Of a DNA stretch of 64,000 nucleotides, positions 39,306 through 60,983 are shown piece after piece. Source of the stretch: an uncultured Mollicutes bacterium (GTDB lineage: Bacteria; Bacillota_I; Bacilli_A; RFN20; CAG-826); the NCBI GenBank assembly GCA_900540365.1, contig UQFN01000001.1, forward strand, positions 15,944-79,943, in the 5' to 3' direction. The first letter of the stretch is position 1; each line of letters begins with the position of its first letter. Position numbers and translations under genes: made by a program. The notes beneath the pieces were generated by a model that worked only from the letters and a program-made list of their open reading frames with translations, ran no database searches and was not told the DNA's origin.

Positions 39306-40857
39306 TTAAAATACATCAACTACTGGTAAACTTTCTATTTCAAATGGGAGAGTTATATCTCCACCTAATTGAGTTATAGTATATGAACCAGCATAATAAC
39401 CATAAGCATAAAAATCGACCTTATTAAGTTTTCCATCTTTTAAAGTAACTTCAATAGGATCGGAAGCTATTGGAGTCGTATCAAATTGTGAAACGCCACA
39501 TCTTGAAATCATTCCTCCAAAATAATATGCAGGTTCTCCAGAAATTGTAAATTTATTTGAATCTTCAGTATCGACATCAAAGAATGCTGCTGATACATAA
39601 CTAAATAATGGCATAACATCTTGTAATGTAACTTCTTCTGTAGAATTAGTAAATTCAAGAGGTGTAGATAATCTAGCTAGGCGTTTACCTTCATAATCAT
39701 AAGCAACTTGGTACCATTTATTATCAATTTTAACTGCTCCAATGGAGTACCTAGAATCAACAGAATCATTATATAAAACGATATCTTCAGTTTTATAAAT
39801 GCTACCAGCAGCATATGACATAAATTGTTCTTCATATGTAGCGATAAAATTACTAGCATCGACTTCTTTTAAAGCAGTTTCTAACGTTTTCTTTTCTTCA
39901 CTCATTTCATATGGTTCAGGAATTGGATAATCTTCACATTCTTCTCCATAACTAACAACATCTAAAGAAGCGCCATAAACACAGTCTTGGAAATTATCGT
40001 TTGTCATAGTTGTTCTAAATGTTACATTTGTAATACGATAATCGTTAAATGTTAAGGTTAAACTTTCAAGTTCATCAAATTGCCACCAAGCAATTCTTTC
40101 AACAAAATCACATGCAAGTTGCATATTCTCTTTTGTTGTTAAATCAAAATTAACTTTGCCTTCGCTTTCAACTAAAGTAGCATCTTTAATTAAATTCATT
40201 GGATTAATAAAATCATTCCAATTTACAACAGTTCCATCATCATATTCAGCTTCAACTTTTACAACTTCATTTTGAAGTGTATATTGATAAAGATAGACTT
40301 TGCCATCTTCATGCCATAATGTACTTTCTCCACCATCAAAATCATCAAAATCACCTTTTGCTTCCCAATGATATGATCCTGAAGTAAAAAGTGACATCAT
40401 TGGTCCTTTTAATGTGGTACCAAGAACACCTTCTTCACTATAAAGTTCTTTATAAGCTTCACCTGAAAATTTAATATTTCCTAAAGAATTATTAACCTTA
40501 TCAGTTACAGTTAAAGCAGCAATATCAATTAAATATTCTGCTTTACAATCTTCATAAGTAACTTCAACTTTATAATCTTCTTGAACTGTTTCAAATTTAG
40601 TTCCAATTTCAACACTAAAATCTAAATCAGATAAATCTAATGTTACATTATCAGTTTCAACATCATTTGAATATGTTACATAATTAGCAACTAAACCTGT
40701 AACTTCAAAACTTTCTCCTAATTTGTAATTAGTTTTACGTTTGTTGTGTCAAGTGTTAATTCATGGGTAATTACTGGTGGGGTGTCGTTACAGCCAACCA
40801 AAGCACCTCCAAGAACTACTACTGATAAAACACTTAATAATAAATTGTTTCTTTTCA
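39306..40857 (-). pseudogene. large surface lipoprotein, N-terminal signal peptide separated from body by a frameshift
   Basis: The ATG at 40857 gives MKRNNLLLSVLSVVVLGGALVGCNDTPP... (lipobox LVGC) and stops after 46 codons. The -1 frame then runs continuously (KRKTNYKLGESFEVTGLVANYVTY...) into the 364-aa ORF 39306-40400. The frameshift is within about 40715-40760. Confidence 0.65.
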
Positions 40858-40920: not shown

Positions 40921-41184
40921 TTAATAGTTTTCATTTTCTTTATAAATAGAATTAACATTCTTATTATGTTCTTCTTTTGATATCTCATATCTTTTTTTCA
41001 AATTTAAAAATAATTGATGAATCTTATCAACATAATTATCATCATGAATATTTTGACTCATTCTATTTTTAATATAATTAATAGCATCATTTAAATGATA
41101 AACGTGATTAATTTTTATATCACTAATATCTTCATAAAGAATAATAATTACGGAATACATTTTTGGAGAATTTCTTTTAAACAT
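40921..41184 (-). CDS. hypothetical protein
   Basis: 87-aa ORF directly downstream of and co-oriented with the NERD gene. No motif recognised. Confidence 0.35.
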   Translation of the reverse strand: MFKRNSPKMYSVIIILYEDISDIKINHVYHLNDAINYIKNRMSQNIHDDNYVDKIHQLFLNLKKRYEISKEEHNKNVNSIYKENENY

Positions 41185-41230
41185 TTTTCTAAATGATTTA
41201 TATGGCCTTTATTTTGTAGCACTGGATTAA

Positions 41231-41587
41231 TTATTTCTTTAGTTTTATTAGTATCTTTATAATAACTTTGCCACATAATATCATTTTCGTTTCCATAAAT
41301 TTTCCATAATTTGATTTTGTTTCTATAACAAATACTCCTGCTTTTGTAATTAAAATATGATCAATTTCAGAAGAATAACCTTCTTCATCTTTAAAACATA
41401 AATTGTTAATTAAATAACCTTTATTATCCTTTACTAACTTCTCTAATTCATTAGCAACTAATTCTTCATCAGGTAAATATTTTATTCTTTGATGTTCTTC
41501 GCGTATTCTTTTTGTTTTAGAAATTAAAGCTAATAAAATTATTAAAATAATTATAATTACTGGTATTAAAATAAATAAATATTCCAT
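41231..41587 (-). CDS. NERD (nuclease-related domain) protein with N-terminal TM anchor
   Basis: N-terminal TM (LFILIPVIIIILIILLALI). NERD core: ELEKLVKDNKGYLINNLCF...SSEIDHILITKAGVFVIETKSNYGK. Confidence 0.65.
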   Translation of the reverse strand: MEYLFILIPVIIIILIILLALISKTKRIREEHQRIKYLPDEELVANELEKLVKDNKGYLINNLCFKDEEGYSSEIDHILITKAGVFVIETKSNYGKFMETKMILCGKVIIKILIKLKK

Positions 41588-41635
41588 TAAAATCCCTTAT
41601 TTTTAATAAAAAACCTTTAAAACTCAATTATTTTT

Positions 41636-43495
41636 TTAATTTTTGTTTAATTTTTCTTTTAAATAATTTCTTAATGATTCATCTTCACAATAAATGTAGC
41701 AGCCTTTAATGCCTCTAGTTAAAAGTACTTTGTAAGTTCTTCTAATTAGTTTATCAGCTTCTTCATTTGAAGTACTTTTTAATCTAATTCCACTTGTCTT
41801 ATCATCTTTTGATATTGCATTACGTTTTGTTTGTACATGACCATCTTTATAATAGAGATCTTTACCAATAAAAACTCCGACATAATCAAATTCCATTCCT
41901 TGGCATGTATGAATACAACCTATTTCTTCAAAAGAATTAGGATTTACTGCCCGATGGTCATCGTTAGCTAAATTCCATTTTGCTTTAAAACCATTTGGAA
42001 GAATAATGTCCCAGTCACCTTTGTTATTTTTAACATTCCAATCATAACAATAACCTGCAATCATTCTAGCTTTGTTATTTATTTTATTTAATTCTCTTAA
42101 TTCATCTCTCATTTTGATAGGATCATCAAAAACCTTAACTTTAAGATTATTAAATTCAAAATTTGTATTAGCTGTTTGCTTAATTTCTAATAAATTATTT
42201 AAAAAAGAAATATAACCATCACTTCCATCACATCTAAATTGAGAAGTTAATTCATAAGGTTTATGAATAATTGCATTTTCTTTTTTAGCATACATAATAA
42301 TTGAATTTACATCATATTTATCATTAATAGTAATTCTTTGGTCATCATCAACAAAAAATATTGAAACTTTACTTGCTTTAATAGCATCTCCAAGCATGTC
42401 GTTACCTAAATATCTATAAGGTTTCTTTTGCATACGATGAGCTTCATCAAAAATACCTACATCAAGTCCGTTATATATCGTATTAGGTAAACACCATGGA
42501 GATTGAATTGCTTTTTGAAGATTAACCATCTTTTTAGCATTGCCTTTTGCTAATAAATTAGCATAACACTTTCTTGGAGCCATATTTTTTGTTATATAAG
42601 AAGCATTTAGTTTTAAATCTATAATACATCTAGCTAATATATTAATTGCTAAAACTGATTTCCCAGTTCCTGGCCCTCCAGTAATTATAAGAACATGCTT
42701 CCTTGTGTCATTTTGAGATTCTTTGATTGCTTTCATGATTTTATCATAAGCAACTACTTGTTCATCAATCATATGAAATTCTTCATTTCCACAAAGCATT
42801 GAATCTAAAGCACCTTGAAGAGATTTAGTAGGTTTTAATCTTCCTTCTTCAATTTTATAAAGCAAAGAACTATCATTTGCTTTTAACTTTATATAATTTT
42901 TAATAAAGTTTCTTAATTTTAAAACATCACTTTGCAAAAATACTGGGGCTTCTTCTATCCATTCATGATATAAGTTATCTTCAATAACAGGACGATATTC
43001 TTCACTTAAATTGTGTAGATATGCACATGGTTTTAAAGTCTCATTATTAATAGAAACAGAGTCATTACAATAATCTAATATTAATTGTTTATAAGAATAA
43101 GCTTGATATGAAGGGTGAGCAACAGGTTCATGGCTTCTTAAATCAGACATTATTGAATGATCACAATTATCATCAACTTTATTAACTCTAGCCCATTGTT
43201 TTAATTCAATAATAACAACATGATCTTCATCATTGTTATTACCCACAGTCATAAAATCAACACGTTTAGAAGTTTGAGGAATATTATATTCAATAGCAAC
43301 TTGACATTCGTTATCAAAATAAAAATCATCTAAAACATCTTTCATAAAGTGTAAAGAATTATTCCATGAATTTATTTCACTAGCTGATCCTCCACTTAAG
43401 CCTTTCTCTCTAAGTGTTTTTAAAAGAATACTTTGCATCATATTGAAAGTAACATCAGTTCTAAAATCTTTTAATGACTTATTATAAATGATCAT
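41636..43495 (-). CDS. PD-(D/E)xK nuclease-like N-domain fused to DUF2075-type (Schlafen/SF1 helicase-like) P-loop ATPase
   Basis: N-terminal restriction-endonuclease-like motif (RVDFMTVG ... VVIIELKQW, i.e. D...E-x-K). Walker A (ITGGPGTGKSVLA), Walker B (IFDEAHRM). Helicase motif V-like (IHTCQGMEFDYVGVFIG) and motif VI-like (VLLTRGIKG). Confidence 0.7.
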   Translation of the reverse strand: MIIYNKSLKDFRTDVTFNMMQSILLKTLREKGLSGGSASEINSWNNSLHFMKDVLDDFYFDNECQVAIEYNIPQTSKRVDFMTVGNNNDEDHVVIIELKQWARVNKVDDNCDHSIMSDLRSHEPVAHPSYQAYSYKQLILDYCNDSVSINNETLKPCAYLHNLSEEYRPVIEDNLYHEWIEEAPVFLQSDVLKLRNFIKNYIKLKANDSSLLYKIEEGRLKPTKSLQGALDSMLCGNEEFHMIDEQVVAYDKIMKAIKESQNDTRKHVLIITGGPGTGKSVLAINILARCIIDLKLNASYITKNMAPRKCYANLLAKGNAKKMVNLQKAIQSPWCLPNTIYNGLDVGIFDEAHRMQKKPYRYLGNDMLGDAIKASKVSIFFVDDDQRITINDKYDVNSIIMYAKKENAIIHKPYELTSQFRCDGSDGYISFLNNLLEIKQTANTNFEFNNLKVKVFDDPIKMRDELRELNKINNKARMIAGYCYDWNVKNNKGDWDIILPNGFKAKWNLANDDHRAVNPNSFEEIGCIHTCQGMEFDYVGVFIGKDLYYKDGHVQTKRNAISKDDKTSGIRLKSTSNEEADKLIRRTYKVLLTRGIKGCYIYCEDESLRNYLKEKLNKN

Positions 43496-43836
43496 AATTT
43501 AGTATATTTATTTGCTTTTCCTTTACACTTTTCTATTGGATATTTTAATTCATTTTTATCTAATTTATTATTAATAATTTCATCTTCATCTAAATTAAGA
43601 ACATCTAACATATTTTGACAATAAATTAATACATCCGCTAACTCATCTTTAACTTCATTTACATCAAAATCATTTTCATTCCATTGAAAACATTCTAATA
43701 ATTCATTAGACTCAATACTTATTGTTTTTGCTAAATTTGCAGGAGTATGAAATTTGTCACAATCTCTGTCTTTGGAAAATTTTTTAATTCTATCTTTTGT
43801 ATCTTTGTTCATATGAAAATTGTAATCTTTTTGCAT
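43492..43836 (-). CDS. MazG-like nucleotide pyrophosphohydrolase (RS21-C6/DCTPP1-like all-alpha NTP-PPase)
   Basis: 114 aa. Matches the family along its length: KFHTPANLAKTISIESNELLECFQW...VKDELADVLIYCQNMLDVLNLDEDEIINNKLDKNELKYP. Its stop overlaps the DUF2075 gene start by 4 nt. Confidence 0.8.
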   Translation of the reverse strand: MQKDYNFHMNKDTKDRIKKFSKDRDCDKFHTPANLAKTISIESNELLECFQWNENDFDVNEVKDELADVLIYCQNMLDVLNLDEDEIINNKLDKNELKYPIEKCKGKANKYTKL

Positions 43837-43966: not shown

Positions 43967-45421
43967 ATGAAAGTCGATTATTCAAAATTGTGGAAGTTGT
44001 TAATAGATAGAAAAATGTCCAAAACAGAATTTAGAAAATTTGCAGTAATAAGTACTAGTACACTTGCAAAACTCGGTAAGGAAGAATTGGTAAGCCCAGA
44101 GGTACTGACTAAAATATGTAGGGCACTAAATTGTGATGTCAAAGATATTCTTACTTTTGTTAAAGATGAACAAGAAATTATCGATACCGCTAAAGACAAG
44201 AATAAATACAAGGTTATATCATTATTTTCTGGCGCTGGAGGAATGGATCTTGGTTTCGTAAATGCAGGTTTCCAAATAATTTGGGCAAACGATATTTTTA
44301 AAGAAGCTATCGAAACTTATAAAAAAAATATTGGAAATCACATTGTATTTGGGGATATAAGTATGATATCAAGTGATGATATACCTAACGATGTTGATGT
44401 TGTTATAGGCGGATTCCCTTGTCAAGGGTTTTCAATTGCAAATAAAAACCGAAGTATGAATGATAAAAGAAATTTTTTATACAAAGAAATGCTTAGAATT
44501 ATTAAAGATAAAAAGCCAAAAATGTTTGTCGCTGAAAATGTAAAAGGCTTGTTATCAATGGAAAAAGGCAAAGTTTTCGATATGATTAAAAAAGACTTTG
44601 AATCTCTGGGATATTATGTTGAAGCTAAAATATTAAATGCTGCCGAATATGGAGTTCCTCAGCAAAGAGAACGCTTAATTATTATAGGAAATAGAATTAA
44701 CAAGTCCGTTTCTTTTCCAATAAAAACACATTACTTAAATAATGATAATAGTAATAAAAATCTTAAACCAGCAGTTGCTACAGAGAAAGCAATTGGTTGG
44801 CTTGCAAATATAAAATGTCAAGAAAATCCAATTATTCTGAAAAATGGTAAAGTAGTTTATCAACATATTGCTCTTGAAAATGTTGCCGATAAATTTTGGG
44901 GAAGAAAATATCCAGTTGATCAAAGTGAACTGTGCGATTACTTAGTATTTTGGAAGAAAAAAGCTAAGATAAGCACTAAAGAAATAGATAGATTGCTCGG
45001 CTATAAATTTACAGCTGGTCATTGGTTTAGAAAAGACAATAATAGTGGTAGCATCCCGACACCAGATGATTGGTGGAAACTAAAAAAAATACTAAATTTT
45101 GATGATAAATTTGATAAGGAGGTTACAACCTTAATCGAAAAAAAAGTTTCATTTGAGCAATCGCTGAGAATTACAAATTGGGATCGACCAAGTGATACAA
45201 TCACAGCAACAAGTCCTGAGATCCATATTAATAAAAAGAGAAGATTAAGTGTCAGAGAATGTGCAATATTGCAATGTTTCCCTGAAGATTTTATATTTTA
45301 TGGTTCAACAATAGGTGTTATGTATAAACAAATTGGCAATGCAGTTCCTGTTAAACTAGCATATGAGATTGCGATGTGTGTAAAATCAGAATTAGAAAAA
45401 TCTACTTGTCTTTTAAACTAA
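43967..45421 (+). CDS. DNA (cytosine-5)-methyltransferase with N-terminal XRE-type HTH
   Basis: HTH at residues ~1-60. m5C-MTase motif I (LFSGAGGMDLGF), motif IV (GGFPCQGFSIANK), motif VI (ENVKGL) and motif VIII (QQRER). After a variable TRD come C-terminal motifs IX-X (RLSVRECAILQCFP..., GNAVP). Confidence 0.9.
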   Translation: MKVDYSKLWKLLIDRKMSKTEFRKFAVISTSTLAKLGKEELVSPEVLTKICRALNCDVKDILTFVKDEQEIIDTAKDKNKYKVISLFSGAGGMDLGFVNAGFQIIWANDIFKEAIETYKKNIGNHIVFGDISMISSDDIPNDVDVVIGGFPCQGFSIANKNRSMNDKRNFLYKEMLRIIKDKKPKMFVAENVKGLLSMEKGKVFDMIKKDFESLGYYVEAKILNAAEYGVPQQRERLIIIGNRINKSVSFPIKTHYLNNDNSNKNLKPAVATEKAIGWLANIKCQENPIILKNGKVVYQHIALENVADKFWGRKYPVDQSELCDYLVFWKKKAKISTKEIDRLLGYKFTAGHWFRKDNNSGSIPTPDDWWKLKKILNFDDKFDKEVTTLIEKKVSFEQSLRITNWDRPSDTITATSPEIHINKKRRLSVRECAILQCFPEDFIFYGSTIGVMYKQIGNAVPVKLAYEIAMCVKSELEKSTCLLN

Positions 45422-46445
45422 TACTTTTAACCCCATCCCATCTTTCATTATGTGAATCGTATCTCTCAATAAGGCTCAAATTAGAAATTCGATTTGTATG
45501 GCCTTTATTTACAGCTTCAAGATAATATTCTTTTTTTGAGGAAATTTTGTTGACTTTTCTTGAAACTGGAAACCATGATACACCACTTGTTTTGTATATT
45601 GGATGTACTTGTTTTGAATTAAAAGCACCTTTTTTAGATCTTCCGTTGATAAGCTGGAAGTCAGGAAATTTATTTATATAATTTTCGATCGAATCTAATA
45701 CCTTTTCGCTATCATCAGTAAGATAAATTGGTTTGAATCCTTGTTTAATATCAAAATAACTATAGGTCTTAAAATTTGAGATCAAATCATAATCAAATAG
45801 TGGACTTAAGATACCGTTTGGCAAACATTTTAAGTAAATAGTATTAAAAGAATCGCCTCTGTATAATTGAAATTTTTTACTATCATCTTTGTAGACAATA
45901 ACCAAAAAATATGTCAAAACAGGTAGTAATTGACCATTATTGAAACTAAACTCTTCAGGTAACAGTGTTTCCACTTTTATGCCAGAATTTTTAATATTTG
46001 GATCAGTATCTAAATTAATATTATGAAAAGATGACTGATTACTTTCAAACTGTAAATTATTAATGTCACCCTTGTTTCCTTTGTAATCCAATGTTTTTAC
46101 ATCAACATTAATAACAGCATCTTTAGTAATAAAAGCAATGTCAGAAGAAACTGGCGATGGATATACATTTAAAATAAAGTCGCTTAAATATCTATAGATA
46201 TAAAATCTTGTAAGTCTTTCGGCAGGTATTTTTATTTTGTTTTTTTCATCCCAAACTTTTGTTAGAAAATTGTAATTTTTTTGTATTTCCTTTTCGATCA
46301 GCTTTAAATCTTTTATAAAAGATGCTGATGTAAATAGCGAATAAAGAATGTCGAAATATTTCTTTTCAAGGTCTAATACTTTTTTCATTTTATCGACATT
46401 ATGTTTTTTTGGATCAATTTGATAAATTTTTTTCTGTGTACTCAT
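45402..46445 (-). CDS. putative Type II restriction endonuclease (cognate of the C5-MTase)
   Basis: 347-aa ORF convergent with the MTase and overlapping it by 20 nt. No family motif recognised. The assignment rests on the classic convergent R-M gene arrangement. Confidence 0.5.
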   Translation of the reverse strand: MSTQKKIYQIDPKKHNVDKMKKVLDLEKKYFDILYSLFTSASFIKDLKLIEKEIQKNYNFLTKVWDEKNKIKIPAERLTRFYIYRYLSDFILNVYPSPVSSDIAFITKDAVINVDVKTLDYKGNKGDINNLQFESNQSSFHNINLDTDPNIKNSGIKVETLLPEEFSFNNGQLLPVLTYFLVIVYKDDSKKFQLYRGDSFNTIYLKCLPNGILSPLFDYDLISNFKTYSYFDIKQGFKPIYLTDDSEKVLDSIENYINKFPDFQLINGRSKKGAFNSKQVHPIYKTSGVSWFPVSRKVNKISSKKEYYLEAVNKGHTNRISNLSLIERYDSHNERWDGVKSISLKDK

Positions 46446-46565: not shown

Positions 46566-47210
46566 CTAAGCATTCCAGAACACTATACTTTTAATTTTTT
46601 TATAAATATCTTTATTATTATTTTTGTCCCATAAACCAAACATACTATTAAAACTTGTTAAAAGACATTTTTTGTTAAATAAAGGGTGATTAGAACATTT
46701 AGTAACAAACCTTTTAATCAATTTAAGATAGACATCTTTATCGTTAATAATTAAAGAATGGCATTTTAATCTCCATTTTTGATTTGCCTTCCAACCTGAA
46801 TATACATCATTCAGCTCTGGTACAATAAAATTTATTATTCCGCCAATTCCAACTATATCATATTTGTTTTTGTTTTTTGCTGGATACTCACATATTAAAA
46901 TATGTAAAAACAAATGTTCAAGATAGTCACAGTAAACAATATTTTCAGGTAATTGCCATTCATATGGATTTGCTAAAGCGTGTGTTTTGCTTCCTAACAT
47001 TATTGCATGATCTTCATATTTATGATGTGCTAGCAACCCATCACTAGTTCTTGAACATTTAGGATTACGATTACCATTTTTAAACATATATGCACTTCGT
47101 CCAATCCCGTACTTCTTTTGCAAATAGTTACAATATTCAAGATACGTATATCCTTTTACTTTGTTATATTCTCTCATGTTCATAATATCTTTTTCTTCGA
47201 ATAAACTCAT
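46566..47210 (-). CDS. hypothetical protein
   Basis: 214-aa ORF. Its first six codons (MSLFEE) and about 100 nt upstream duplicate the 3' end of the helicase pseudogene (see findings). Confidence 0.45.
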   Translation of the reverse strand: MSLFEEKDIMNMREYNKVKGYTYLEYCNYLQKKYGIGRSAYMFKNGNRNPKCSRTSDGLLAHHKYEDHAIMLGSKTHALANPYEWQLPENIVYCDYLEHLFLHILICEYPAKNKNKYDIVGIGGIINFIVPELNDVYSGWKANQKWRLKCHSLIINDKDVYLKLIKRFVTKCSNHPLFNKKCLLTSFNSMFGLWDKNNNKDIYKKIKSIVFWNA

Positions 47211-47575: not shown

Positions 47576-50500
47576 CTCATTTGTTCGAATGCTTCATCTA
47601 AATTTTGTATTTTCCCGATTGTAAATTCAAATAAACCAATAATTGATTCATAATCTTTAACTGCACTATTAGGTATTCTAATTAATTTTATATTGTATTT
47701 AGCACAGATTTCTTCTTTTTTCTATCTCTAAGAGCAGTTTCTTTACTACCAACATGTTCACCACCATCAATTTCAAAAGCAACTATTGTTTTATATTGAC
47801 GATTAAATAAACCTCCACTAACTTGAACTATAACATCAAATTCTTTCATACCTATTTCTTTATGGTCAAAATAATTTACATTTTTAATAGCTTTTTCTAC
47901 AAGTACATTTCTTTCAATTCTAAATTTAGATCCTCGACGATTAAAATAAGGTTTAATAGTTTCAAAAAACTCCCTTTCGCTTTTTGAATCATTTGAAAAA
48001 TCATAATTAATAACTGCTTCACTTTGAGGAACACTAATTTCTCCGTTACCAAAAACATAATCTGAAAGAGCTTTAATATCATTAGTGTCGTTTTTACTTA
48101 AGGCATCAATTGCTTCTTTATCTCCAACAAAAATAAATTTATTTTTTGCTCTAGTAACTGCAACATTAATTAATTCATAATTATTTTTAATCCAACCCAT
48201 TGTTCTTTTTGCGGTTTTTAAAGATAAGGCTGAAGACATAATAATTACTGATTTTTCTTAACCTTGTAAGGTATGAACTGTACCAGCTTTAACATCTTCT
48301 ATTCCAAATTGTTCTAAATATTCATTAATTAAAGCTGCTTGGTTAACAAATGGAGTTATTATTCCAACATCCTTATAATTATTTTCTTTAATAATTTTTG
48401 CTATTTCATAAGCTTCTTCATTATAGGAATTCCTTAATTTAGCTTTAGATGTATTTTGAACATTTACATAAACTAAATCACCTAAATTTTCATTAAGTAA
48501 CTTAAGTTGTTTCTCATAAAATCTTTGATTAACAAAACTTGCAATTCTTTTACCGCATCGATAATGGTATCTTAATAAGATACATTTCGAATTATTATCT
48601 TTCTTTAACATTAAAGAAAGAATTGAATTTCTAACATAGTTATATTCTTTACTAATGTTATATTTATTCATTAAATCAAAATTAACATCATTTTCAATTA
48701 CGGTAACTGGTTGCAGTTGATTTGTATCTCCTACTAATAATAAATTTTCTCCTCTAACAATAGGAATTAATGAAGATGCAATATTGCATTGTCCTGCTTC
48801 ATCCATTATTACTAAATCAAAATGATTAGTTGCACTTCCTAACTTTTCTGAAGATAAATTAGTAGATAAAATAATAGGAAAAATAGACAAAAAACGTCTT
48901 AAATTCAAGTTATTTTTCAAAAATTTATTAAATTTAGAAACTGCAATATTCTCATCTTCAAGTGCAATAATTTCCCTTAATTCCTTAAAAGTTGGACCTA
49001 ATAATTTCTTATATCTTAAAATTGATGAGTAATATAAAAAATTGTGAAAATCTAAATCATCAAAGACTGATTTTGTACATTTAAATATATCTTTATCAGT
49101 AATATTTTTACTTGTGTTTAATTTATATTTATAAAGTTTAAGTTCAGATTCTAATTTCTCATTAATTTGATTAATTGATATAAAATCTTTTAATTTTCCA
49201 AGAGTATTGATACGCTCTTCTAAATCTAATTTATTTTCATATTCTATTAATAACTTTTTAAGTTCATTAAAGTTTGATAATGATTTATTTTTATTATCTT
49301 CAATTAGATTATCATATGTCTTTACATCTTGATTTTTTGATATATAAGTAAGTAATTCTTTTAACTTTTTAATCGTGTCAAGCATTTCAATATTATTTCC
49401 AATACGAATCATTGGAAAAATAATTTCTTGACTACTATTTTTAAATTTAAAAGACTCAATCATCTTTTTATAAATATCAATAACAGGATGATTGTTATTT
49501 GAACATACTAAAACTGTTTTATTATTTGCATAAGCAGATAATAAAACATTAAATATAGTTTCTGTTTTACCAGTTCCTGGTGGCCCTTTAACATAAGTAA
49601 TATGATTAACCATTGAGTTATAAACTACCCTAAGTTGATCAATATTTATTTTATTTTTATTAAATACAACAATATTTAAATCTTTATCTTTGTTATTTCT
49701 ACTTCTATTTCGACCAAAAAAAGCTTTCAAAGGTGTAGTTAATTTATTTTCTTCATCTAGTTTTTCAATAGATTCAATTGCATCACTTACACCATTTAAA
49801 CAATTTCGAAATAACAAAAATATTGATGGAGTCGTATCTATTCTTTCGTTATGATGAAAATTTTCTTTAATTAATTCTTTATATTCATTATATTTTTCAT
49901 CAAAGGTAGAACAAAAATCTTCAGAAGAAATTCCATCTAAATACATTCCTAAAGTAACTCTTTTTCTTTCAGAAATTAAAAAAGAATTATTAATAGAAGA
50001 TTTTTTGGCTACATGTAATGTTTTATCTAAAAAATTTAACTCTAATTCACGATATGCAATAACATATTGCTTTCCATCAATATCTATTGAAAGTTTATTT
50101 AAAGCAAGTGTAGCAAAGCGATTTTTTTGTTTAGCTTCTTCATAAGAAACTTTAAATACTTTATCTAATAAAATATTAAATTGATTATCATCTAATTGAT
50201 AATTAGAAGATTTAGAAAGTGTATAAAAATCAATATCATCAATTAAAGCTTTATCTTTAACGTAAGGGTCATTATCTAATCGATAACATTCTAATAAATA
50301 TTCTAAAATATTATTATCAAAATTAACTACATCAAAATAAGCATAAAACGCCTTATCATTTTTAATTTTAGTTTTAAGATTTATAGGAATTTCGTAGTAA
50401 CTATTTTCAATAATCCTAGCAGATTTAATTCCTGAAAATTTAATATAAGTGTCATTTCCTTTTTTTAAAAGATGGTCAGTTTTAAAAGGATTAAAAATAT

Positions 50501-50648
50501 CACAATAAATGATTTCTTTTTTAATATCTACTGCTTTTATTCCAATATAATAATTAGTAGACTCATTATTCCTGTTTAAATAAGAAACTGCGAGCCATTT
50601 ATTACTAATAATTGCTTGATATATTAAGTTCTTTATCGATAATTTCAT
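47576..50648 (-). pseudogene. Upf1-like (AAA_11/AAA_12) SF1 helicase with C-terminal DUF559 (Vsr-like) endonuclease domain, disrupted by in-frame TAA and a poly-A frameshift
   Basis: Helicase motif I (KGPPGTGKTET), motif II (VIMDEAGQ), and motif V (TVHTLQG) followed immediately by TAA at 48258-48260. The same frame resumes (EKSVIIMSS...VAVTRAKNKFIFVGD, motif VI). A DUF559-like domain follows (IVAFEIDGGEHV...RDRKK). It ends in the 47688 ORF, but a frame change in the A-run near 47712-47722 gives a native-looking tail (EEICAKYNIKLIRIP...EQMSLFEE*) ending at 47576. Confidence 0.7.
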
Positions 50649-50940: not shown

Positions 50941-51010
50941 CTACTTTTTAATATTTAACGCAACTACACTCTCAATATGTGAAGTAATCCACGTGGACTA
51001 TAACCAAGCC
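50941..51010 (-). pseudogene. remnant of an rlmD 3' end (duplicate of the last ~20 codons of the rlmD gene at 60984)
   Basis: The minus-strand translation ...HVDYFTY / HIESVVALNIKK* parallels the rlmD C-terminus FVDMFPRTYHIESVVGLYLKK*. The 19-mer CAACTAC[A/G]CTCTCAATATG is shared by 50961-50979 and 61004-61022. Confidence 0.6.
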
Positions 51011-51030
51011 TAACCTAGAGGCTATCAAAT

Positions 51031-51990
51031 TTATTTCTTCATTTCCACTAAAGGAATGTTGTTTTCATTGCAATACTTGCGAATGGCTTCTTTATTTTCG
51101 ACTGAAGCGTCAACTCCTAAGATGATCTTTTTGATCTTTGGCGCAGGAGTTCTAGTGTTTGCGTCTCCTAAAATTCGCCACTCGTTTTGATACTCCCACT
51201 GCTTGTATTTAGTTATAAACAGTCTTAAATATTGAGAAGTGTCTGGCTTTATTTGATGGCTCGACATGCCGAATACCATTTGTCCTATGAAATTAGCCAC
51301 TATAGACATCACAATGTTCGTTTCTCTTTCGTCTTGATAAATTACAGGAAACAATATGTTTGGTGTCTTAAAATCGCTAAAATCATATTCGACGCAATAT
51401 CCACTATTCTTGCCAGCATAGTTCTCCCACATGTATTCATTATCAGCATCCTCACAAAGTGAACAAATACCCATTTTTTGTCTTGCTTCATAAGCTCCAA
51501 GAATTAATGTTTTTATTTGTTCATTCATTCCAGGTTCATCAAGCTTCTGAGGAATATTGACCAAGTAATTAACGATGGGAGCTGTGTTAGCACCAGGGAC
51601 TAGCTCATCTATTTCTGGTTGAATATCCAAAAGATGATTTGGTCTAACGGTTCCGTTTCTATTTAGAATCTGACTAATCAACAGCTGTATTTGCTCAAAG
51701 TTCTCTTTGCTTGTATAAGGCCTAATAAATTCCATTATTTGAAAAACACACTGTCTCTTTAGTCCATCTTTCTCTAAGTCATACAAGTTTTGCATATTGA
51801 GGGATGTCATACATTCAGTAGGATCATCCAACTTCTCAGCAACGCATAAGAAAAGATATTTGTTTTCAAACATGTCGAATGTGTGTTCATCAAACGGTCT
51901 ATATTTGAAAAGAGACGCAGGCCCTTTATAAGACGCATCTCTATTCATCAAAATATAGTTAATATAATAAAGCCTTTCGTTATGGTTCAT
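51031..51990 (-). CDS. DUF2971-family protein
   Basis: The N-terminal signature (SLFKYRPF...ENKYLFLCVAEKLDDPTECM) is consistent with DUF2971 (LYKYRSF...fNDPfE). 319 aa, immediately downstream of hsdR. Confidence 0.5.
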   Translation of the reverse strand: MNHNERLYYINYILMNRDASYKGPASLFKYRPFDEHTFDMFENKYLFLCVAEKLDDPTECMTSLNMQNLYDLEKDGLKRQCVFQIMEFIRPYTSKENFEQIQLLISQILNRNGTVRPNHLLDIQPEIDELVPGANTAPIVNYLVNIPQKLDEPGMNEQIKTLILGAYEARQKMGICSLCEDADNEYMWENYAGKNSGYCVEYDFSDFKTPNILFPVIYQDERETNIVMSIVANFIGQMVFGMSSHQIKPDTSQYLRLFITKYKQWEYQNEWRILGDANTRTPAPKIKKIILGVDASVENKEAIRKYCNENNIPLVEMKK

Positions 51991-52001
51991 AAATCATACT
52001 A

Positions 52002-55000
52002 TTAAGCTTTAATTTTCTTTTCTTTCCATATTTCTAACAAAACCCAGTGTAAGCAGTCGTTTCTAAAATCAAAATCAGCTATTTTTGTAACAAATGAGTA
52101 AACATTAGGGTTGTTAGTAAGAACCTTATAAACGTTGCATTTGTTATCCATACAATTCATGAAAATGATTTTTTCAAATTCATCAAAGGTTTGACAATAG
52201 GCAAGAACATTTATGCAGAAAGAATTATTCAATAAGAATTCCATAAATTCTTTAAAGATTGGTTCTGTCGGAGATAATCCAAGGTTTTCGTTGAATACCT
52301 TCACAGCCTCTTCTAAAGTACTTGTTTCAGGTTTTTTTGAAGTTGGTTTTCTATTTGCACCACTTGAACCAGTCATCTCTTTACCATCGCCATATTCCGG
52401 ATCGCTGATTGATTCATTCTTAGTAATGCAAATGTTAGTAAATTTTACCAACTCACTCAAATCCTTTATCGACAAAACATTTGTTCTTAACTTAATGCAA
52501 GCAAGAAGATAGGAATAGAACACGTCTTTATCCCTTAATCTCCTGTCATTAAGTATTGTTTTTTGTATACAAATATCATACATACGGACAAAGTTACGAA
52601 TTACCCATAGTTTGTCTTTTTTATACTTTTGCTGTTCTATCAAATCCTTAGAGAATGCTTTAGCATCGTTTTCAAATTTAATTCTAATTCTGGCTACAAT
52701 TTGTGTTAATGCCAAATAGGCAGAATCATCTTTTTTGTAAGAAGCAGATTGTAGATAAACTGCGCCTGCATGAATTTCTTCTTCTGTTGCGAGTCTTAAT
52801 GCATCAAGATTCTTTTCAAGCTTGTAGATATCGTCAAAATCATCTTTTCTGTAATATTTGGCGTCAACATAGAAAGTGTTAAATGCGTCCAGAATATCGT
52901 TGTATTCATTAACAAAATCTAAAACAAATGTTCGTTTTTCAGGATATTCAGGACACACCCTATTTAATCTCGATAATGTTTGGACAGCCTTGACTCCTTT
53001 GAGTGGAGTATCAACAAGCATCATAGATAAATATTGCTCATCAAAACCAGTAGTATACTTATCAGCAACTACTAAGAATTTATATTCTTTATTCTTGTGG
53101 AAAACTTCTTCAAGCGGATCGGTCAAATTGTTAAAGTCGTTTTCTTCATATTTAATGCCTTTAATCTCTAAAACATCTGAATAAGCAATTAAAGCTTTAT
53201 AAGAGAGACCATTGTCCGCGAAATACTTATTCAAAGCAATATAGTACTTCAATGCAGCTTCTCTTCTTCCGGTCACAATCATTGCTTTCAAATTACCATC
53301 CAAGTCATTTACGCGAGAATAGAAGAATCCCATGAAAATATTGACCTTTTTCTCAATGATTTTCTCATCCAACAAAGTTGCATCGGTAAGAGTTTTATTG
53401 GTTTTATCCAAATCAACTAATAGGTCTTGTTCTTTAATACATTGTGCTTTGCAATATAGAGAATAAGTGTTGTAATTCTTAAGAACATCTAGAATGAATC
53501 CTTCATCGATGGCTTGTTTCATTGTATATGAGAAGAAAGGCTTGTATTCTTTTCTTCCTTGTTCGTCCAAAACTGGTTGTCCATTTTCATCCACAACAAC
53601 ATCACCAAATATTTCTCTGGTTTCCTTTTTAGGCGTTGCTGTAAATGCTATGAAGGTGACGTTCTTCAATCTACCTTCAACTTTATCCATTCTGTCATTG
53701 ATAAGATCTGCGATTTGCTCTGAGGTAAATTCTTTATCTTTTAGATAATCGTTTAACGATTCCTTATCGTCTATCGAGAATGAAGTTTTAATATCATTCA
53801 TGTATTGACCGGATGTAGAGTCATGTCCTTCGTCAATTAAAACAGCAAACTTTTTATTTTTCGTTGAAGAAATACCATCAACGGCATCAGGGAATTTTTG
53901 CATGTTAGCAACAATTATGCGGTCTCCGGAGTTAATGGAACTCTTTAATTTTGCTGAACTAGTTGGTTTAACTACAAAGCCAGTTTGATGATCAATTTTA
54001 TTCATTGCTTGATCCAACTGTTTATTAATTACTAATCTGTTAGAAACAATAATCACGCTGTCAAAAATAGGTTTATTGTTACAGTTGTTTAAGTAAGCAA
54101 GTTTGTAAGCGGTCCACACAATCATGAATGTTTTGCCTGAACCAGCTGCAGCTGCTATTAAATAATTCTTTAAATCGTCTTTTGTAAATTTATCTAAAAC
54201 ATCTTCAATTATATTGTTTGTACATTTAAATTGATGATAACGAGGAAAGATCATTGAATCTTTTTCGCCAAAAATGAAGTTTTGAATAAGATTAGAAATA
54301 CCTTCCTTGGTCATTATTTCTTCCCAGAAGTATTCGACTGGATAATGTGGGTACTCAGTATCAGGATTTCCGGCACCACCATCATTGCCCTGGTTAAATG
54401 GCAAGAAATCAGCATCTTTTGACAGATTGGCGCACATCGATATATGAAGTCTGTCCATCGCAAATGAACATATGATGTGTCTGAAATAAGCAGATGTATG
54501 ATCTCTATCATTCTTTAATTGATATTCAGCATCTTGATACGTTTGAGTAGTTCCGTTTTTTATTTCCACTGCAAAAAGATGCAGACCATTAACGCCAATA
54601 GAAACATCAATGCGATCACTAGTACCTAAATAATTTAGTTCTTTCACGACAAAAAAGCGGTTCTTTTTGTAACGTTCATACTCTTCGGGATTAATTGTAT
54701 TGTTAGGCTTAGTGTAAAAAATGAAGAGCTGTTCTTTTGCACAACCGGCTGGTTGAATGTAAATACCTTTGACTAAAGCTTTAATTATTCCGTCTTTAGA
54801 CAATGCTTCGTATATTAAACTTAATAAATCGCTTTCTGAGCATTCTCTTAATAGCTTTTCTGTGACTTTTGGTTGAGTATCTTTGAGAAACTCAAAGAGT
54901 AAGTTTTTATCCAAGGCATAGGTTGATATGTAATTCGCGCCAACATTGCCGAGCGAATCTTTAAGCTTTTCATATACTATTCTTTTTTCAAATGACATTT

Positions 55001-55043
55001 CGTTAGGCATTGGTATCCATCCCCTTTCCGTGTATTCGTTCAT
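52002..55043 (-). CDS. hsdR: Type I restriction enzyme R subunit (HsdR)
   Basis: 1013 aa. Walker A (AAAGSGKTFM), DEAH-like motif II (VLIDEGHDS), helicase motifs in the C-terminal RecA domain, and an N-terminal HsdR_N nuclease region. Its start region overlaps hsdS. Confidence 0.85.
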   Translation of the reverse strand: MNEYTERGWIPMPNEMSFEKRIVYEKLKDSLGNVGANYISTYALDKNLLFEFLKDTQPKVTEKLLRECSESDLLSLIYEALSKDGIIKALVKGIYIQPAGCAKEQLFIFYTKPNNTINPEEYERYKKNRFFVVKELNYLGTSDRIDVSIGVNGLHLFAVEIKNGTTQTYQDAEYQLKNDRDHTSAYFRHIICSFAMDRLHISMCANLSKDADFLPFNQGNDGGAGNPDTEYPHYPVEYFWEEIMTKEGISNLIQNFIFGEKDSMIFPRYHQFKCTNNIIEDVLDKFTKDDLKNYLIAAAAGSGKTFMIVWTAYKLAYLNNCNNKPIFDSVIIVSNRLVINKQLDQAMNKIDHQTGFVVKPTSSAKLKSSINSGDRIIVANMQKFPDAVDGISSTKNKKFAVLIDEGHDSTSGQYMNDIKTSFSIDDKESLNDYLKDKEFTSEQIADLINDRMDKVEGRLKNVTFIAFTATPKKETREIFGDVVVDENGQPVLDEQGRKEYKPFFSYTMKQAIDEGFILDVLKNYNTYSLYCKAQCIKEQDLLVDLDKTNKTLTDATLLDEKIIEKKVNIFMGFFYSRVNDLDGNLKAMIVTGRREAALKYYIALNKYFADNGLSYKALIAYSDVLEIKGIKYEENDFNNLTDPLEEVFHKNKEYKFLVVADKYTTGFDEQYLSMMLVDTPLKGVKAVQTLSRLNRVCPEYPEKRTFVLDFVNEYNDILDAFNTFYVDAKYYRKDDFDDIYKLEKNLDALRLATEEEIHAGAVYLQSASYKKDDSAYLALTQIVARIRIKFENDAKAFSKDLIEQQKYKKDKLWVIRNFVRMYDICIQKTILNDRRLRDKDVFYSYLLACIKLRTNVLSIKDLSELVKFTNICITKNESISDPEYGDGKEMTGSSGANRKPTSKKPETSTLEEAVKVFNENLGLSPTEPIFKEFMEFLLNNSFCINVLAYCQTFDEFEKIIFMNCMDNKCNVYKVLTNNPNVYSFVTKIADFDFRNDCLHWVLLEIWKEKKIKA

Positions 55044-56247
55044 AAATAATAGATTTTTTAAATTGTTTTAATTTCTCTATTTTTTCAGTTTTAAGTTTAA
55101 TCAACGAATTAATTACCGCTACTTTTTTATCCAAATAATTAACGATTTCTTTTTGCTCAGCAATTGGAGGGAGAGGAAATTGAAAATTCCCGAATTGTTC
55201 TTGATAGAGGTGTATAATTGTACTTTGTCCCCTTTGATTATAATCAAACCACTCCCAAAAAATATTACTTGAAAGGCAATAAAACAAGTATTTATTAATG
55301 TATTTACCTGACTCGTTTCTAATCAACATAATTCCACTATTAAGAGATGTTTTATAAGGCAAACCTTGAACAATAGCAACTTTGCCAACAGTGCCGTCTT
55401 TTGTTATTAAGAGATCGTTTTCTTTAATCTGAATCTGATAAGCTTCTTTGTATCTTGCCTCAGTAATATGAGTGCATGTGTCCCAATTGATTGTTCCATC
55501 TAAAAAATCAGTCCCAGTTATTAAAAATGGCCCTTCATCCTTGTACTCTTCAGCCTTTAATCCTTGCCATCCAATTCTTCCTTTAAGATAGCAATGATGT
55601 TTTATTTTTGCTAGCTCCCAATCTATAGGTAATTCACCTATAAAATGGTTTTTCGTTTTTTTCTTTTTCGACTTTCTGAGTCCATTTTTGCAAAGCTCAG
55701 AAATGAGGCTGTATCTATAGGCTCTCAATTTTTCGATTTCTTGTTCTTCAAAAGAGAGGGAGTCATTAATTTTGCTAATTGAGTTATTCAGTTCGTTGAC
55801 AATCTTTATTTGTTCCTCGTTGGAACGTGTAGGTATGTAAAAATTCTTTATATCATTTGTCGAAATATTAGGCTGTGCGGATCCCATCGAAGTAAGCCTA
55901 ACAAAATCTAAAAACATATCATCTAATAGGCAATATTTCAAATACTCTGGTCTTACGCAGCGCGGCCTTATAATACCAACTCGCTGGTTAATACAAGCCG
56001 GTTTATCATCGTCAAAAAGTCCGCTTTTTCCAACGGTGGCGCCACTAAGAGCAACAAGAACATCATTTCTTTTAACGGTATATGGTGACAATCTAGGATC
56101 AAATTGAACACCATAGCATTTTTGAATATCTATTTTTTCATCGACGTCTGTAATTCTAATCACAGGAAAAGGATTCGAATAATCAAAACTGATTGGTTTA
56201 AAAGCAAAACCATTTATTAAATCTGCTATGTATTTAATTCTAATCAT
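55003..56247 (-). CDS. hsdS: Type I RM specificity subunit (HsdS), two target-recognition domains
   Basis: Two TRDs separated by a coiled-coil conserved region. Conserved blocks: ALSGATVGKSG, GSAQPNISTNDIKNF, LPPIAEQKEIV. It overlaps hsdM by 8 nt. Confidence 0.85.
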   Translation of the reverse strand: MIRIKYIADLINGFAFKPISFDYSNPFPVIRITDVDEKIDIQKCYGVQFDPRLSPYTVKRNDVLVALSGATVGKSGLFDDDKPACINQRVGIIRPRCVRPEYLKYCLLDDMFLDFVRLTSMGSAQPNISTNDIKNFYIPTRSNEEQIKIVNELNNSISKINDSLSFEEQEIEKLRAYRYSLISELCKNGLRKSKKKKTKNHFIGELPIDWELAKIKHHCYLKGRIGWQGLKAEEYKDEGPFLITGTDFLDGTINWDTCTHITEARYKEAYQIQIKENDLLITKDGTVGKVAIVQGLPYKTSLNSGIMLIRNESGKYINKYLFYCLSSNIFWEWFDYNQRGQSTIIHLYQEQFGNFQFPLPPIAEQKEIVNYLDKKVAVINSLIKLKTEKIEKLKQFKKSIIYERIHGKGMDTNA

Positions 56248-58243: not shown

Positions 58244-58329
58244 CTCTTTTGATTCTCCATTCCAATCCCGGGAATCTAAACTTACTTAATTATATCGAAA
58301 TTTAAATTAGTAATCTATCCAAACTATAG

Positions 58330-60664: not shown

Positions 60665-60983
60665 GATTGAATCCTCCTTTAATCTTAGCCCAGATTACTT
60701 TTGACAATACCATGATATCCTGCCGATAATACCATGTCAATAAAAAATTAATCTTTGCTTAGATTAGTTTTAATGTTCTACTAGTAGAAAAGTTTTTAAA
60801 ACCTGAAGAATGATCTGCACCCCGTTATGTACATTTTATATCCGTGATTAACACCACTTACAACGTAGGACACAGGCTATCTTTTGTATAATTAATTAAT
60901 ACATTTTGCATTAAGTAAAAGTGGTATTCGTGAGATATAACTCTCTTCAAATTATGACCTTTTTTATTAAAAATGAATGGTTT

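What the first reader, a model, noticed from the sequence alone, without database searches (positions are those of the whole stretch)
40921..43836. Candidate undescribed defense module: MazG-like NTP pyrophosphohydrolase + PD-(D/E)xK/DUF2075 ATPase + membrane-anchored NERD protein
Four co-oriented genes appear to be translationally coupled. The mazG-like stop overlaps the start of the 619-aa DUF2075-type SF1-like ATPase by 4 nt. That ATPase carries an N-terminal restriction-endonuclease-fold motif. It is followed 45 nt later by a TM-anchored NERD nuclease-related protein and an 87-aa ORF. The module sits inside a dense defense island between a Type II RM and the island edge. A dNTP-hydrolysing MazG/DCTPP1-like enzyme coupled to a nuclease-ATPase suggests a nucleotide-depletion or sensor/effector antiviral mechanism. 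I cannot map this gene combination to any named system.
Basis: partly seen in the sequence, partly recalled or inferred. Interest (0 to 1): 0.85.

Follow-up and report, generated by a model that had tools for sequence, protein, structure and literature searches.

The report
MazG-partnered nuclease-helicase defence gene pair
The conserved unit here is two overlapping genes, a small DCTPP1-like nucleotide pyrophosphatase and a nuclease-helicase built like the known anti-phage protein Nhi, found side by side in many bacteria and some archaea; the NERD gene and the 87-aa ORF are one broken gene that is not part of it.

Summary
The domain calls hold. They are MazG-like (PF12643), a 619-aa protein with an N-terminal PD-(D/E)xK nuclease fold plus a DUF2075/Schlafen-type SF1B helicase, and a TM-anchored NERD protein. 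The 4-nt ATGA overlap between MazG and the helicase gene is real.

The "four-gene cassette" is not. The 118-aa NERD ORF and the 87-aa ORF are one 223-aa NERD gene broken by two 1-nt deletions; conspecific strains carry it intact. NERD lies next to the pair in only 2 of 83 related loci.

What is conserved is the two-gene pair. A MazG-like gene sits directly beside the nuclease-helicase, on the same strand and in either order, in about 54 of 80 genome loci from many bacterial phyla, plus a haloarchaeal plasmid. In the reverse direction, 41 of the 80 closest MazG-like loci directly abut a DUF2075 gene.

The large protein has the architecture of the validated single-gene defences Nhi and Nhi-like, so it does map to a named kind. 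The MazG partner matches no PADLOC model, and I found no paper describing it.

Best reading: an Nhi-like defence with an accessory enzyme that cleans modified dCTP from the nucleotide pool. The defence role and this mechanism are inferred, not shown.

This strain's copy looks partly decayed: MazG carries W26C in the base-binding tryptophan sandwich.

The parts
43492..43836 (-). MazG-like (DCTPP1-like, all-alpha) NTP pyrophosphohydrolase gene. The ORF is 114 aa; the probable true start is M9 at 43812, giving 106 aa as in relatives. It carries a strain-specific W26C substitution.
   Evidence: PF12643, E=3.3e-13. PDB sequence hits: 4qgp 3.6e-18; mouse and human DCTPP1 1.6e-11. The metal ligands E42/E45/E48...E65/D68 are at least 90% conserved in 53 partner sequences and invariant in A5. 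Conspecific strains read RDWDKFH where the window reads RDCDKFH. No PADLOC model matches.
43492..43495 (-). ATGA overlap: the MazG stop codon TGA overlaps the helicase start codon ATG, which suggests translational coupling.
   Evidence: ORF coordinates and sequence. The same 4-nt overlap occurs in L001, L003, L084, L086 and many genome loci where the MazG ORF ends at 5004 and the partner starts at 5001.
41636..43495 (-). 619-aa nuclease-helicase with the Nhi-like architecture.
   Evidence: PF09848, E=7.6e-87. PADLOC: PDC-S41 4e-24, AbiO 1e-17, Nhi 3e-17, all partial. AF2 model pLDDT 91.7. Foldseek top hits are RecD2, RecD, SLFN11, Dda, Dna2 and Upf1. 3587 relatives among cluster representatives.
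42896..43495 (-). N-terminal PD-(D/E)xK nuclease domain (about residues 1-200). Motif residues are E69, D80 and E97-x-K99.
41681..42700 (-). DUF2075/Schlafen-group-3 SF1B helicase core (residues 266-605). Walker A is G276-T-G-K279; Walker B is D350-E351.
   Evidence: Pfam, invariant columns, fold search.
40921..41587 (-). TM-anchored NERD gene, disrupted here by two 1-nt deletions at about 41300-41303 and about 41190. A neighbour, not part of the conserved pair.
   Evidence: Three-frame reading. The repaired protein covers NERD profile positions 6-110 of 111 at 77.9 bits. Intact 223-aa orthologues are present in L084 and L086-L088. A DNA alignment shows both deletions. NERD is adjacent in only 2 of 83 related loci.

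Best explanation
The functional unit is a two-gene operon.

Gene 2 (619 aa) is a fused nuclease-helicase: a PD-(D/E)xK nuclease joined to a DUF2075 SF1B helicase. This is the same architecture as the validated single-protein anti-phage defences Nhi and Nhi-like. It most likely uses ATP to load on or translocate along foreign DNA and cuts it with its N-terminal nuclease.

Gene 1 (106-114 aa) is a DCTPP1-like all-alpha NTP pyrophosphatase. It keeps the Mg-binding Glu/Asp residues and, across the family, most of the cytosine pocket (Trp-Trp sandwich, Phe, one of the two His). I propose it hydrolyses non-canonical, C5-modified dCTP such as 5-methyl- or 5-hydroxymethyl-dCTP. That would either starve phages that build modified DNA, or stop modified nucleotides released from degraded phage DNA from entering host DNA and causing self-attack.

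Shown here: the domain identities, the conserved catalytic residues, the 4-nt overlap, and the strong cross-phylum synteny of the pair.

Inferred: the defence function, the enzyme's substrate, and the link to modified DNA.

The NERD gene is a separate neighbour and is a pseudogene in this strain.
For: Synteny:
- A MazG-like ORF lies on the same strand directly beside the nuclease-helicase in 55 of 83 loci. About 54 of these are among the 80 genome loci, which span Bacillota, Bacteroidota, Pseudomonadota, Verrucomicrobiota and a Parcubacteria-group (CPR) MAG; both gene orders occur.
- The pair is also on a Halalkalicoccus jeotgali plasmid, annotated 'nucleotide pyrophosphohydrolase' plus 'DUF2075'.
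- MazG is the only widely conserved neighbour family, in 47 loci; the next largest cluster has 9.
- Reciprocally, 41 of the 80 closest MazG-like metagenome loci directly abut a DUF2075 gene, and about 6 more have one within 1 kb.
- Pairwise identities of the two proteins correlate: Mantel r=0.32, with 0 of 2000 permutations as high.
- The pair moves as a unit into unrelated contexts.

Active sites:
- Nuclease and Walker A/B residues are invariant.
- The MazG metal ligands are conserved.
- Using the DCTPP1 alignment and the pocket described in PMC13291643, family residues F20, W26, F29, H30, W52 and D68 match DCTPP1 Phe41, Trp47, Phe50, His51, Trp73 and Asp98.
- DCTPP1 has high affinity for C5-modified dCTP (PMC7162842 abstract).

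Architecture: it matches Nhi and Nhi-like.

Link to modified DNA:
- Phages escape Nhi-like by losing their DNA methylase (10.1101/2022.08.27.505566).
- PLDc-helicase-DUF3427 genes (domains shared with the McaZI-group modification-dependent enzymes discussed in PMC6765204) recur beside the pair.
- Small NUDIX_4 proteins, and one fusion annotated SRA-NUDIX-NOV_C, also recur there.
- Where the MazG-like gene lacks a DUF2075 partner it can sit beside GmrSD or DUF3427 enzymes.

Context: defence-island or mobile-element neighbours in the window and in about 6 of 10 sampled loci.
Against: - No experiment exists for this family. The defence role rests on context and architecture only.
- Sequence similarity to S. 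epidermidis Nhi is confined to the helicase core: PADLOC Nhi 60 bits, profile positions 181-433 of 470.
- I could not obtain the Millman Nhi-like sequence, so family membership was not tested.
- About a third of nuclease-helicase loci have no MazG neighbour, so MazG is accessory, not obligatory.
- DCTPP1's second cytosine-selecting residue, His38, is not conserved; the window has I17 at that position.
- No modified-base reader domain was found in the 619-aa protein.
- The host encodes a C5 cytosine methylase immediately next door. This argues against indiscriminate attack on 5mC DNA.
- In this strain MazG carries W26C at the Trp47-equivalent and NERD is frameshifted, so the local copy may not be fully functional.
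Confidence: 0.55

Rival explanations
1. One reading: a four-gene sensor/effector cassette (MazG, nuclease-ATPase, membrane NERD, 87-aa protein) acting together, with MazG depleting canonical dNTPs to stop phage replication.
For: All ORFs are co-oriented and closely spaced. In this species the order MazG, DUF2075, NERD is constant while the upstream cargo varies. Nucleotide-depleting defences (dCTP deaminase, dGTPase) exist, as cited.
Against: The 87-aa ORF is the tail of a frameshifted NERD gene. NERD is adjacent in only 2 of 83 related loci and absent beside homologues at 81-84% identity. The MazG protein is about 106 aa with no regulatory domain, and it resembles a pool-sanitising enzyme rather than a bulk dNTPase. 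The large protein has its own invariant nuclease site.
Confidence: 0.08
2. MazG is the effector and the nuclease-helicase is mainly a sensor. On detecting phage DNA, the helicase activates or releases MazG, which hydrolyses dCTP or other dNTPs. This would be an abortive or replication-arrest mechanism.
For: Tight coupling and co-inheritance of the pair. DCTPP1 also acts on dCTP itself (PMC7162842 abstract). A neighbouring 724-aa protein with a cytidine/dCMP deaminase domain in L042 hints at cytosine-nucleotide targeting.
Against: About a third of the nuclease-helicases lack MazG, and the published Nhi and Nhi-like proteins defend as single genes. The nuclease catalytic residues are invariant, which is unexpected for a pure sensor. 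There is no evidence that the two proteins interact.
Confidence: 0.17
3. This is not immunity. The pair is a DNA-repair or replication-stress module: a Dna2/RecD-like nuclease-helicase that processes damaged forks, together with a housekeeping nucleotide-pool sanitiser.
For: The closest folds include Dna2, RecD2 and Pif1. Many homologues carry a C-terminal LexA/UmuD-type S24 peptidase domain, which suggests an SOS/RecA link. MazG/DCTPP1 enzymes are classical house-cleaning enzymes.
Against: The distribution is patchy and looks horizontally transferred across bacteria and archaea. Copies occur on plasmids. The pair lies in variable hotspots beside RM, Mokosh-like, GmrSD and DUF3427 genes. The validated defence proteins Nhi and Nhi-like share the architecture.
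Confidence: 0.12
4. The adjacency is incidental: two unrelated genes that happen to be neighbours in this genome.
For: None beyond the absence of experiments.
Against: Same-strand adjacency occurs in about 54 of 80 loci across phyla and in both search directions, often with a 4-nt overlap.
Confidence: 0.01

Closest known systems
Nhi (SERP2475, Staphylococcus epidermidis; Bari et al. 2022, preprint 10.1101/776245)
   Same: N-terminal PD-(D/E)xK nuclease plus an SF1B helicase that overlaps DUF2075. Found on plasmids and in defence neighbourhoods. PADLOC Nhi and AbiO models hit the helicase core.
   Different: Sequence similarity is limited to the helicase (60 bits, partial profile). There is no C-terminal glyoxalase/bleomycin-resistance domain. 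Nhi works as a single gene; here a MazG-like gene is overlapped or adjacent in about two thirds of relatives.
Nhi-like (Bacillus; Millman et al. 2022, preprint 10.1101/2022.05.11.491447)
   Same: The domain organisation is identical: a predicted N-terminal nuclease plus DUF2075. Phage methylase loss gives escape, which fits the modified-nucleotide theme seen around this pair.
   Different: It was described as one protein with no MazG partner. I could not obtain the reference sequence. Distant B. cereus-group plasmid homologues (24% identity) have a different all-alpha NTP-PPase (PRA-PH type) and an HNH gene upstream.
DCTPP1 / RS21-C6 (mammalian all-alpha dCTP pyrophosphatase)
   Same: Same fold family (E=1.6e-11). 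The metal ligands and most of the cytosine pocket are conserved in the partner family: Phe41, Trp47, Phe50, His51 and Trp73 equivalents.
   Different: The protein is shorter (106 aa against 170). The His38 equivalent is absent. It is encoded in an operon with a nuclease-helicase. The window's copy has Cys at the Trp47 position.
Schlafen group 3 proteins (SLFN11, SLFN5, SLFN13, SLFN14)
   Same: The C-terminal helicase domain belongs to the same Pfam family, PF09848. SLFN11 and SLFN14 are among the top structural matches.
   Different: The N-terminal nuclease has a different fold (PD-(D/E)xK, not the Schlafen core RNase). There is no known MazG partner in eukaryotes.
Modification-dependent (Type IV) restriction enzymes: GmrSD, DUF3427-containing enzymes such as the McaZI group, SRA/McrB-N fusions
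   Same: They recur as neighbours of the pair or of the MazG-like gene alone. An association of DUF3427 enzymes with DUF2075 NTPases was noted before (PMC6765204).
   Different: The 619-aa protein has no recognisable modified-base reader domain. The host's own C5 methylase gene lies next door.

Membership tests
Nhi / Nhi-like nuclease-helicase defence proteins | N-terminal PD-(D/E)xK nuclease domain with conserved catalytic residues | tested here: met
Nhi / Nhi-like nuclease-helicase defence proteins | SF1B helicase core overlapping DUF2075 (PF09848) with Walker A and B motifs | tested here: met
   PF09848, E=7.6e-87. GTGK279 and DE351 invariant. RecD2, Dda, Dna2 and Upf1 are the top folds.
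Nhi / Nhi-like nuclease-helicase defence proteins | Full-length sequence homology to the reference proteins (SERP2475; Millman Nhi-like) | tested here: inconclusive
   PADLOC Nhi model: E=2.9e-17, 60 bits, profile positions 181-433 of 470 only. B. cereus plasmid relatives are 24% identical over the full length.
Nhi / Nhi-like nuclease-helicase defence proteins | Protects against phage when expressed alone | not testable with these tools
   Needs cloning and phage challenge.
MazG-like / DCTPP1-type all-alpha NTP pyrophosphatase | Pfam PF12643 match above the gathering score, and homology to solved family members | tested here: met
   50.1 bits against a cutoff of 27. 4qgp 3.6e-18; DCTPP1 1.6e-11.
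MazG-like / DCTPP1-type all-alpha NTP pyrophosphatase | Metal-binding ExxE...ExxD residues | tested here: met
   E42, E45, E48, E65 and D68 are present in the window and at least 90% conserved or invariant in partners.
MazG-like / DCTPP1-type all-alpha NTP pyrophosphatase | Trp47/Trp73 base-stacking sandwich of the cytosine pocket | tested here: not met
   The family has W26 and W52. The window copy, and the identical L002, has C26. Conspecific strains keep W.
NERD (PF08378) protein | Full-length NERD domain in an intact ORF | tested here: not met
   The domain is complete only after repairing two frameshifts. It is intact in L084 and L086-L088.
   2 of 83 loci. Absent in L001 and L003.
Type IV modification-dependent restriction | Recognisable modified-base reader domain (SRA, EVE/PUA, McrB-N, GmrSD-N) in the effector | tested here: not met
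dNTP-depletion defence (dCTP deaminase / dGTPase type) | Infection-triggered destruction of a canonical dNTP pool | not testable with these tools
   Needs nucleotide measurements. The enzyme has a different fold from those systems.
Any PADLOC v2.0.0 system containing the MazG component | An HMM match for the MazG-like protein | tested here: not met
   0 PADLOC families at E<=1.

The most novel reading that the evidence does not exclude
A widespread, undescribed two-component immune module in bacteria and archaea couples nucleotide-pool policing to DNA attack. A DCTPP1-like enzyme destroys C5-modified dCTP (phage hm-dCTP or 5m-dCTP, or salvage products), while a partner Nhi-type nuclease-helicase degrades the invader. 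The recurring NUDIX_4 and MazG genes beside GmrSD and DUF3427-containing enzymes would then reflect a general rule: modification-dependent restriction needs a modified-nucleotide sanitiser. This would be a prokaryotic counterpart of the role DCTPP1 plays in protecting mammalian methylation patterns.
Probability: 0.3. Interest if true: 0.75.

Novelty: new variant of a known kind. Interest (0 to 1): 0.6.

Why it matters
Nhi-type nuclease-helicases are validated defences, but how they select targets is poorly understood. A small nucleotide pyrophosphatase travels with them across phyla, keeps most of the cytosine pocket of DCTPP1, and also turns up beside Type IV restriction enzymes.

This points to a simple, testable idea. 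The state of the modified-nucleotide pool may be part of how these systems discriminate self from phage, or how they avoid autoimmunity. It would also give a first biological role to the large bacterial PF12643 family.

The two genes total about 2.2 kb and are easy to clone from an intact strain. MazG has so far been listed only as a predicted, unvalidated defence domain (PMC13092281).

Tried and rejected
- Genetic code 4 (TGA=Trp) was considered because GC is about 25-30%. Rejected: ORFs are long under table 11, and MazG ends at the same C-terminal residues as its homologues.
- Sequence search of the 619-aa protein against PDB chains found nothing. A profile of the N-terminal domain also found nothing meaningful.
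- hhalign of the N-terminal profile against the window's HsdR N-terminus aligns the catalytic motifs, but E=0.088, so I use it only as an illustration.
I used the window fragment aligned with full-length database homologues instead.
- The promoter and terminator scan gave no more sites than shuffles and no terminator. It is uninformative in this AT-rich DNA.
It says little about phage carriage. One 'Microcystis phage' record does carry the pair.
- Literature searches returned no paper linking the two genes: DUF2075+MazG; Schlafen+prokaryotic+MazG; PF12643; MazG/Nhi/DCTPP1/'defense island'.
- I looked for an alternative conserved partner in MazG-less loci and found none.
- I could not retrieve the Millman Nhi-like reference sequence, so direct family membership stays open.
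Full report
**1. What is at the coordinates**

On the minus strand, table-11 ORFs lie at 43836-43492 (114 aa), 43495-41636 (619 aa), 41587-41231 (118 aa) and 41184-40921 (87 aa).

- The 114-aa ORF is MazG-like: PF12643, E=3.3e-13.
- The 619-aa ORF is DUF2075/Schlafen-group-3 helicase: PF09848, E=7.6e-87, residues 266-605.
- The 118-aa ORF matches only the first half of NERD, profile positions 6-61 of 111.
- The first two ORFs overlap by ATGA.
- The gap between the helicase gene and the NERD start is 48 nt.

**2. The NERD gene and the "87-aa ORF" are one broken gene**

- Reading the three frames shows the NERD domain continuing in a second frame and then in the frame of the 87-aa ORF.
- A joined 222-aa sequence covers NERD profile positions 6-110 of 111 at 77.9 bits.
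- Conspecific contigs whose helicase is 96-97% identical carry an intact 223-aa NERD gene 48 nt downstream.
- A DNA alignment shows two single-A deletions in the window, at about 41300-41303 and about 41190.
- The next gene, a lipoprotein, is also frameshifted.
- The Mokosh-like helicase upstream is split into 796 + 183 aa. The same split appears in an independent assembly.

**3. The large protein**

- Fifty-five full-length homologues at 26-48% identity share invariant E69, R78, D80, E97, K99 and W101. They also share Walker A (G276-T-G-K279), Walker B (D350-E351) and further helicase residues.
- The AF2 model is confident: pLDDT 91.7. Its nearest solved folds are SF1B helicases: RecD2, RecD, SLFN11, Dda, Dna2, nsp13 and Upf1.
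- PADLOC gives partial hits to PDC-S41, AbiO and Nhi.
- The published Nhi has an N-terminal PD-(D/E)xK domain and helicase motifs overlapping DUF2075. Millman et al. named a Bacillus protein "Nhi-like" for the same organisation.
- So the protein maps to a known kind of single-protein defence. Sequence-level membership is unresolved.

**4. The small protein**

- It matches the A. fulgidus pyrophosphatase 4qgp (3.6e-18) and mouse and human DCTPP1 (1.6e-11).
- In 53 partner sequences, F20, R24, F29, H30, E42, E45, E48, W52, E65 and D68 are at least 90% conserved. W26 is at least 90% conserved in the curated set.
- Using the ungapped part of the alignment and the pocket described in PMC13291643, these residues correspond to DCTPP1 Phe41, Trp47, Phe50, His51 and Trp73, the metal ligands, and Asp98. 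The His38 equivalent is not conserved.
- DCTPP1 has high affinity for dCTP and C5-modified dCTP (abstracts listed).
- The window's copy, and the identical L002 copy, reads C26 where conspecifics read W.
- No PADLOC model matches this protein.

**5. Synteny**

| Test | Result |
|---|---|
| Genome scan with the helicase alignment | 80 loci across many bacterial phyla and some archaea |
| MazG-like ORF on the same strand, directly adjacent | 55 of 83 loci held; about 40 upstream (often a 4-nt overlap), about 14 immediately downstream |
| Neighbour clustering | MazG is the only broadly conserved neighbour: 47 loci, next cluster 9 |
| NERD adjacent | 2 of 83 loci |
| Homologues at 84% and 81% identity | MazG present with the 4-nt overlap, no NERD, unrelated surroundings |
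| Haloarchaeal plasmid | Carries the pair under RefSeq names |
| Reverse scan with a MazG alignment in metagenomes | 41 of the 80 closest loci directly abut a DUF2075 gene, about 6 more within 1 kb; some partners have other N-termini |
| Co-variation of pairwise identities | Mantel r=0.32, 0 of 2000 permutations as high |

The pair is therefore a real, mobile two-gene unit. About a third of the nuclease-helicases lack MazG, so it is an accessory partner.

**6. Clues to function**

- Phages escape the Nhi-like system by losing their DNA methylase.
- PLDc-helicase-DUF3427 genes recur beside the pair. A link between DUF3427 modification-dependent enzymes and DUF2075 NTPases was noted before.
- Small NUDIX_4 proteins also recur beside the pair. 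In L001 there is a fusion whose precomputed annotation is SRA-NUDIX-NOV_C; my own Pfam scan recovered NUDIX and NOV_C.
- MazG-like genes without a DUF2075 partner sit beside GmrSD or DUF3427 enzymes in several loci.
- In conspecific strains the variable cargo next to the pair includes an MrcB_N-NOV_C protein, or an MTaX1 gene plus a C5 methylase.
- One locus has a 724-aa protein with a cytidine/dCMP deaminase domain immediately downstream.
- Together with the DCTPP1-like pocket, these point to C5-modified cytosine nucleotides. This is inference.
- Counter-evidence: the 619-aa protein has no reader domain, His38 is not conserved, and the host's own C5 methylase gene is adjacent.

**7. Context in the window**

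- The pair lies at the stable edge of a variable defence hotspot. Downstream come NERD, a lipoprotein, an HTH protein, a phosphopantetheinyl transferase and a sugar ABC transporter, all conserved in conspecifics. Upstream cargo differs between strains.
- In the window the upstream cargo is an HTH-fused C5 methylase with an MwoI_N-like REase, an unknown 214-aa protein, a split Mokosh-like helicase, DUF2971/PDC-S31, and a Type I RM block of higher GC.

**8. Novelty**

- No paper in the library holds both DUF2075 and MazG. Related searches found nothing that links the two genes.
- DefensePredictor lists a MazG NTP pyrophosphohydrolase among predicted, unvalidated defence domains.
- I rate this a new variant of a known kind: an Nhi-type nuclease-helicase with a conserved DCTPP1-like partner.

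**9. Verdict**

- Confidence that the two genes form one functional unit of defence type is moderate to good.
- Confidence in the modified-dCTP mechanism is about one in three.

Noticed in passing
window 40921-41587; 39306-40857; 47688-50648: Three genes in or near the island are disrupted. NERD has two 1-nt deletions in A-runs. The lipoprotein gene is frameshifted. The Mokosh-like SF1 helicase is split into 796 + 183 aa; an upstream helicase with the same AAA_11/AAA_12 domains in the conspecific L084 is 1029 aa. This is either strain-level decay or homopolymer sequencing errors.
   Followed up: partly
window 43759-43761 (codon 26 of the MazG-like ORF): W26C substitution (TGG to TGT) at the residue equivalent to DCTPP1 Trp47, which forms half of the base-stacking sandwich and lies near C5 of modified dCTP. 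Conspecific strains and at least 90% of the family have Trp.
   Followed up: partly
P0122, P0124, P0126, P0131, P0178, P0226, P0258; loci such as L029, L047, L052, L054, L055, L063: A large subset of homologues (about 785-826 aa) carries a C-terminal Peptidase_S24 (LexA/UmuD-type self-cleaving) domain. Many of them still pair with MazG. This suggests control by RecA or ssDNA. P0141 instead has a PIF1 helicase fusion.
   Followed up: partly
L005, L015, L019, L025, L028, L073; L001:6249-7628: There is a recurrent larger cluster. It combines a PLDc-ResIII-DUF3427 enzyme with a small NUDIX/NUDIX_4 protein of about 135 aa (or one fusion annotated SRA-NUDIX-NOV_C), next to the MazG/DUF2075 pair. A second kind of nucleotide pyrophosphatase is therefore tied to the same neighbourhood.
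   Followed up: partly
L093, L108 (GmrSD); L123-L125, L142 (DUF3427 enzyme): Close MazG-like relatives that lack a DUF2075 neighbour sit beside Type IV restriction enzymes.
   Followed up: partly
L091 (B. cereus plasmid pb1, NZ_CP095378.1 43569-53434): A distant full-length homologue (24% identity) on B. cereus and B. thuringiensis megaplasmids is preceded by a different all-alpha NTP pyrophosphatase (PRA-PH type) and an HNH endonuclease gene. This may be a parallel association of NTP-PPases with DUF2075 nuclease-helicases.
   Followed up: partly
L092 (Microcystis phage Mwe-JY31, PP438423.1): A 22-kb record deposited as a complete phage genome carries the MazG-like plus nuclease-helicase pair (40% identity), with all genes annotated as hypothetical.
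   Followed up: no
window 43967-46445: A C5 cytosine methylase with an N-terminal Cro/C1-type HTH (HTH_26) fused to it converges on a 347-aa REase with an MwoI_N domain. The two ORFs overlap by 20 nt at their 3' ends.
   Followed up: no
window 51000-60700: The Type I RM block (hsdR 1013 aa, hsdS 414 aa, hsdM 667 aa) plus a DUF2971/PDC-S31 gene has clearly higher GC (0.31-0.37) than the rest of the window (about 0.18-0.32), which suggests recent acquisition. Beside it lie a 226-aa methylase fragment, a 357-aa methylase-C/specificity fusion and an unknown 183-aa ORF.
   Followed up: no
window 46566-47210: A 214-aa ORF inside the island has no Pfam or PADLOC match. The same gene is present in L002.
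   Followed up: no
L042:6915-9089: In Chryseobacterium defluvii, a 724-aa protein with a cytidine/dCMP deaminase domain lies 55 nt downstream of the pair. This is another cytosine-nucleotide enzyme in this neighbourhood.
   Followed up: no
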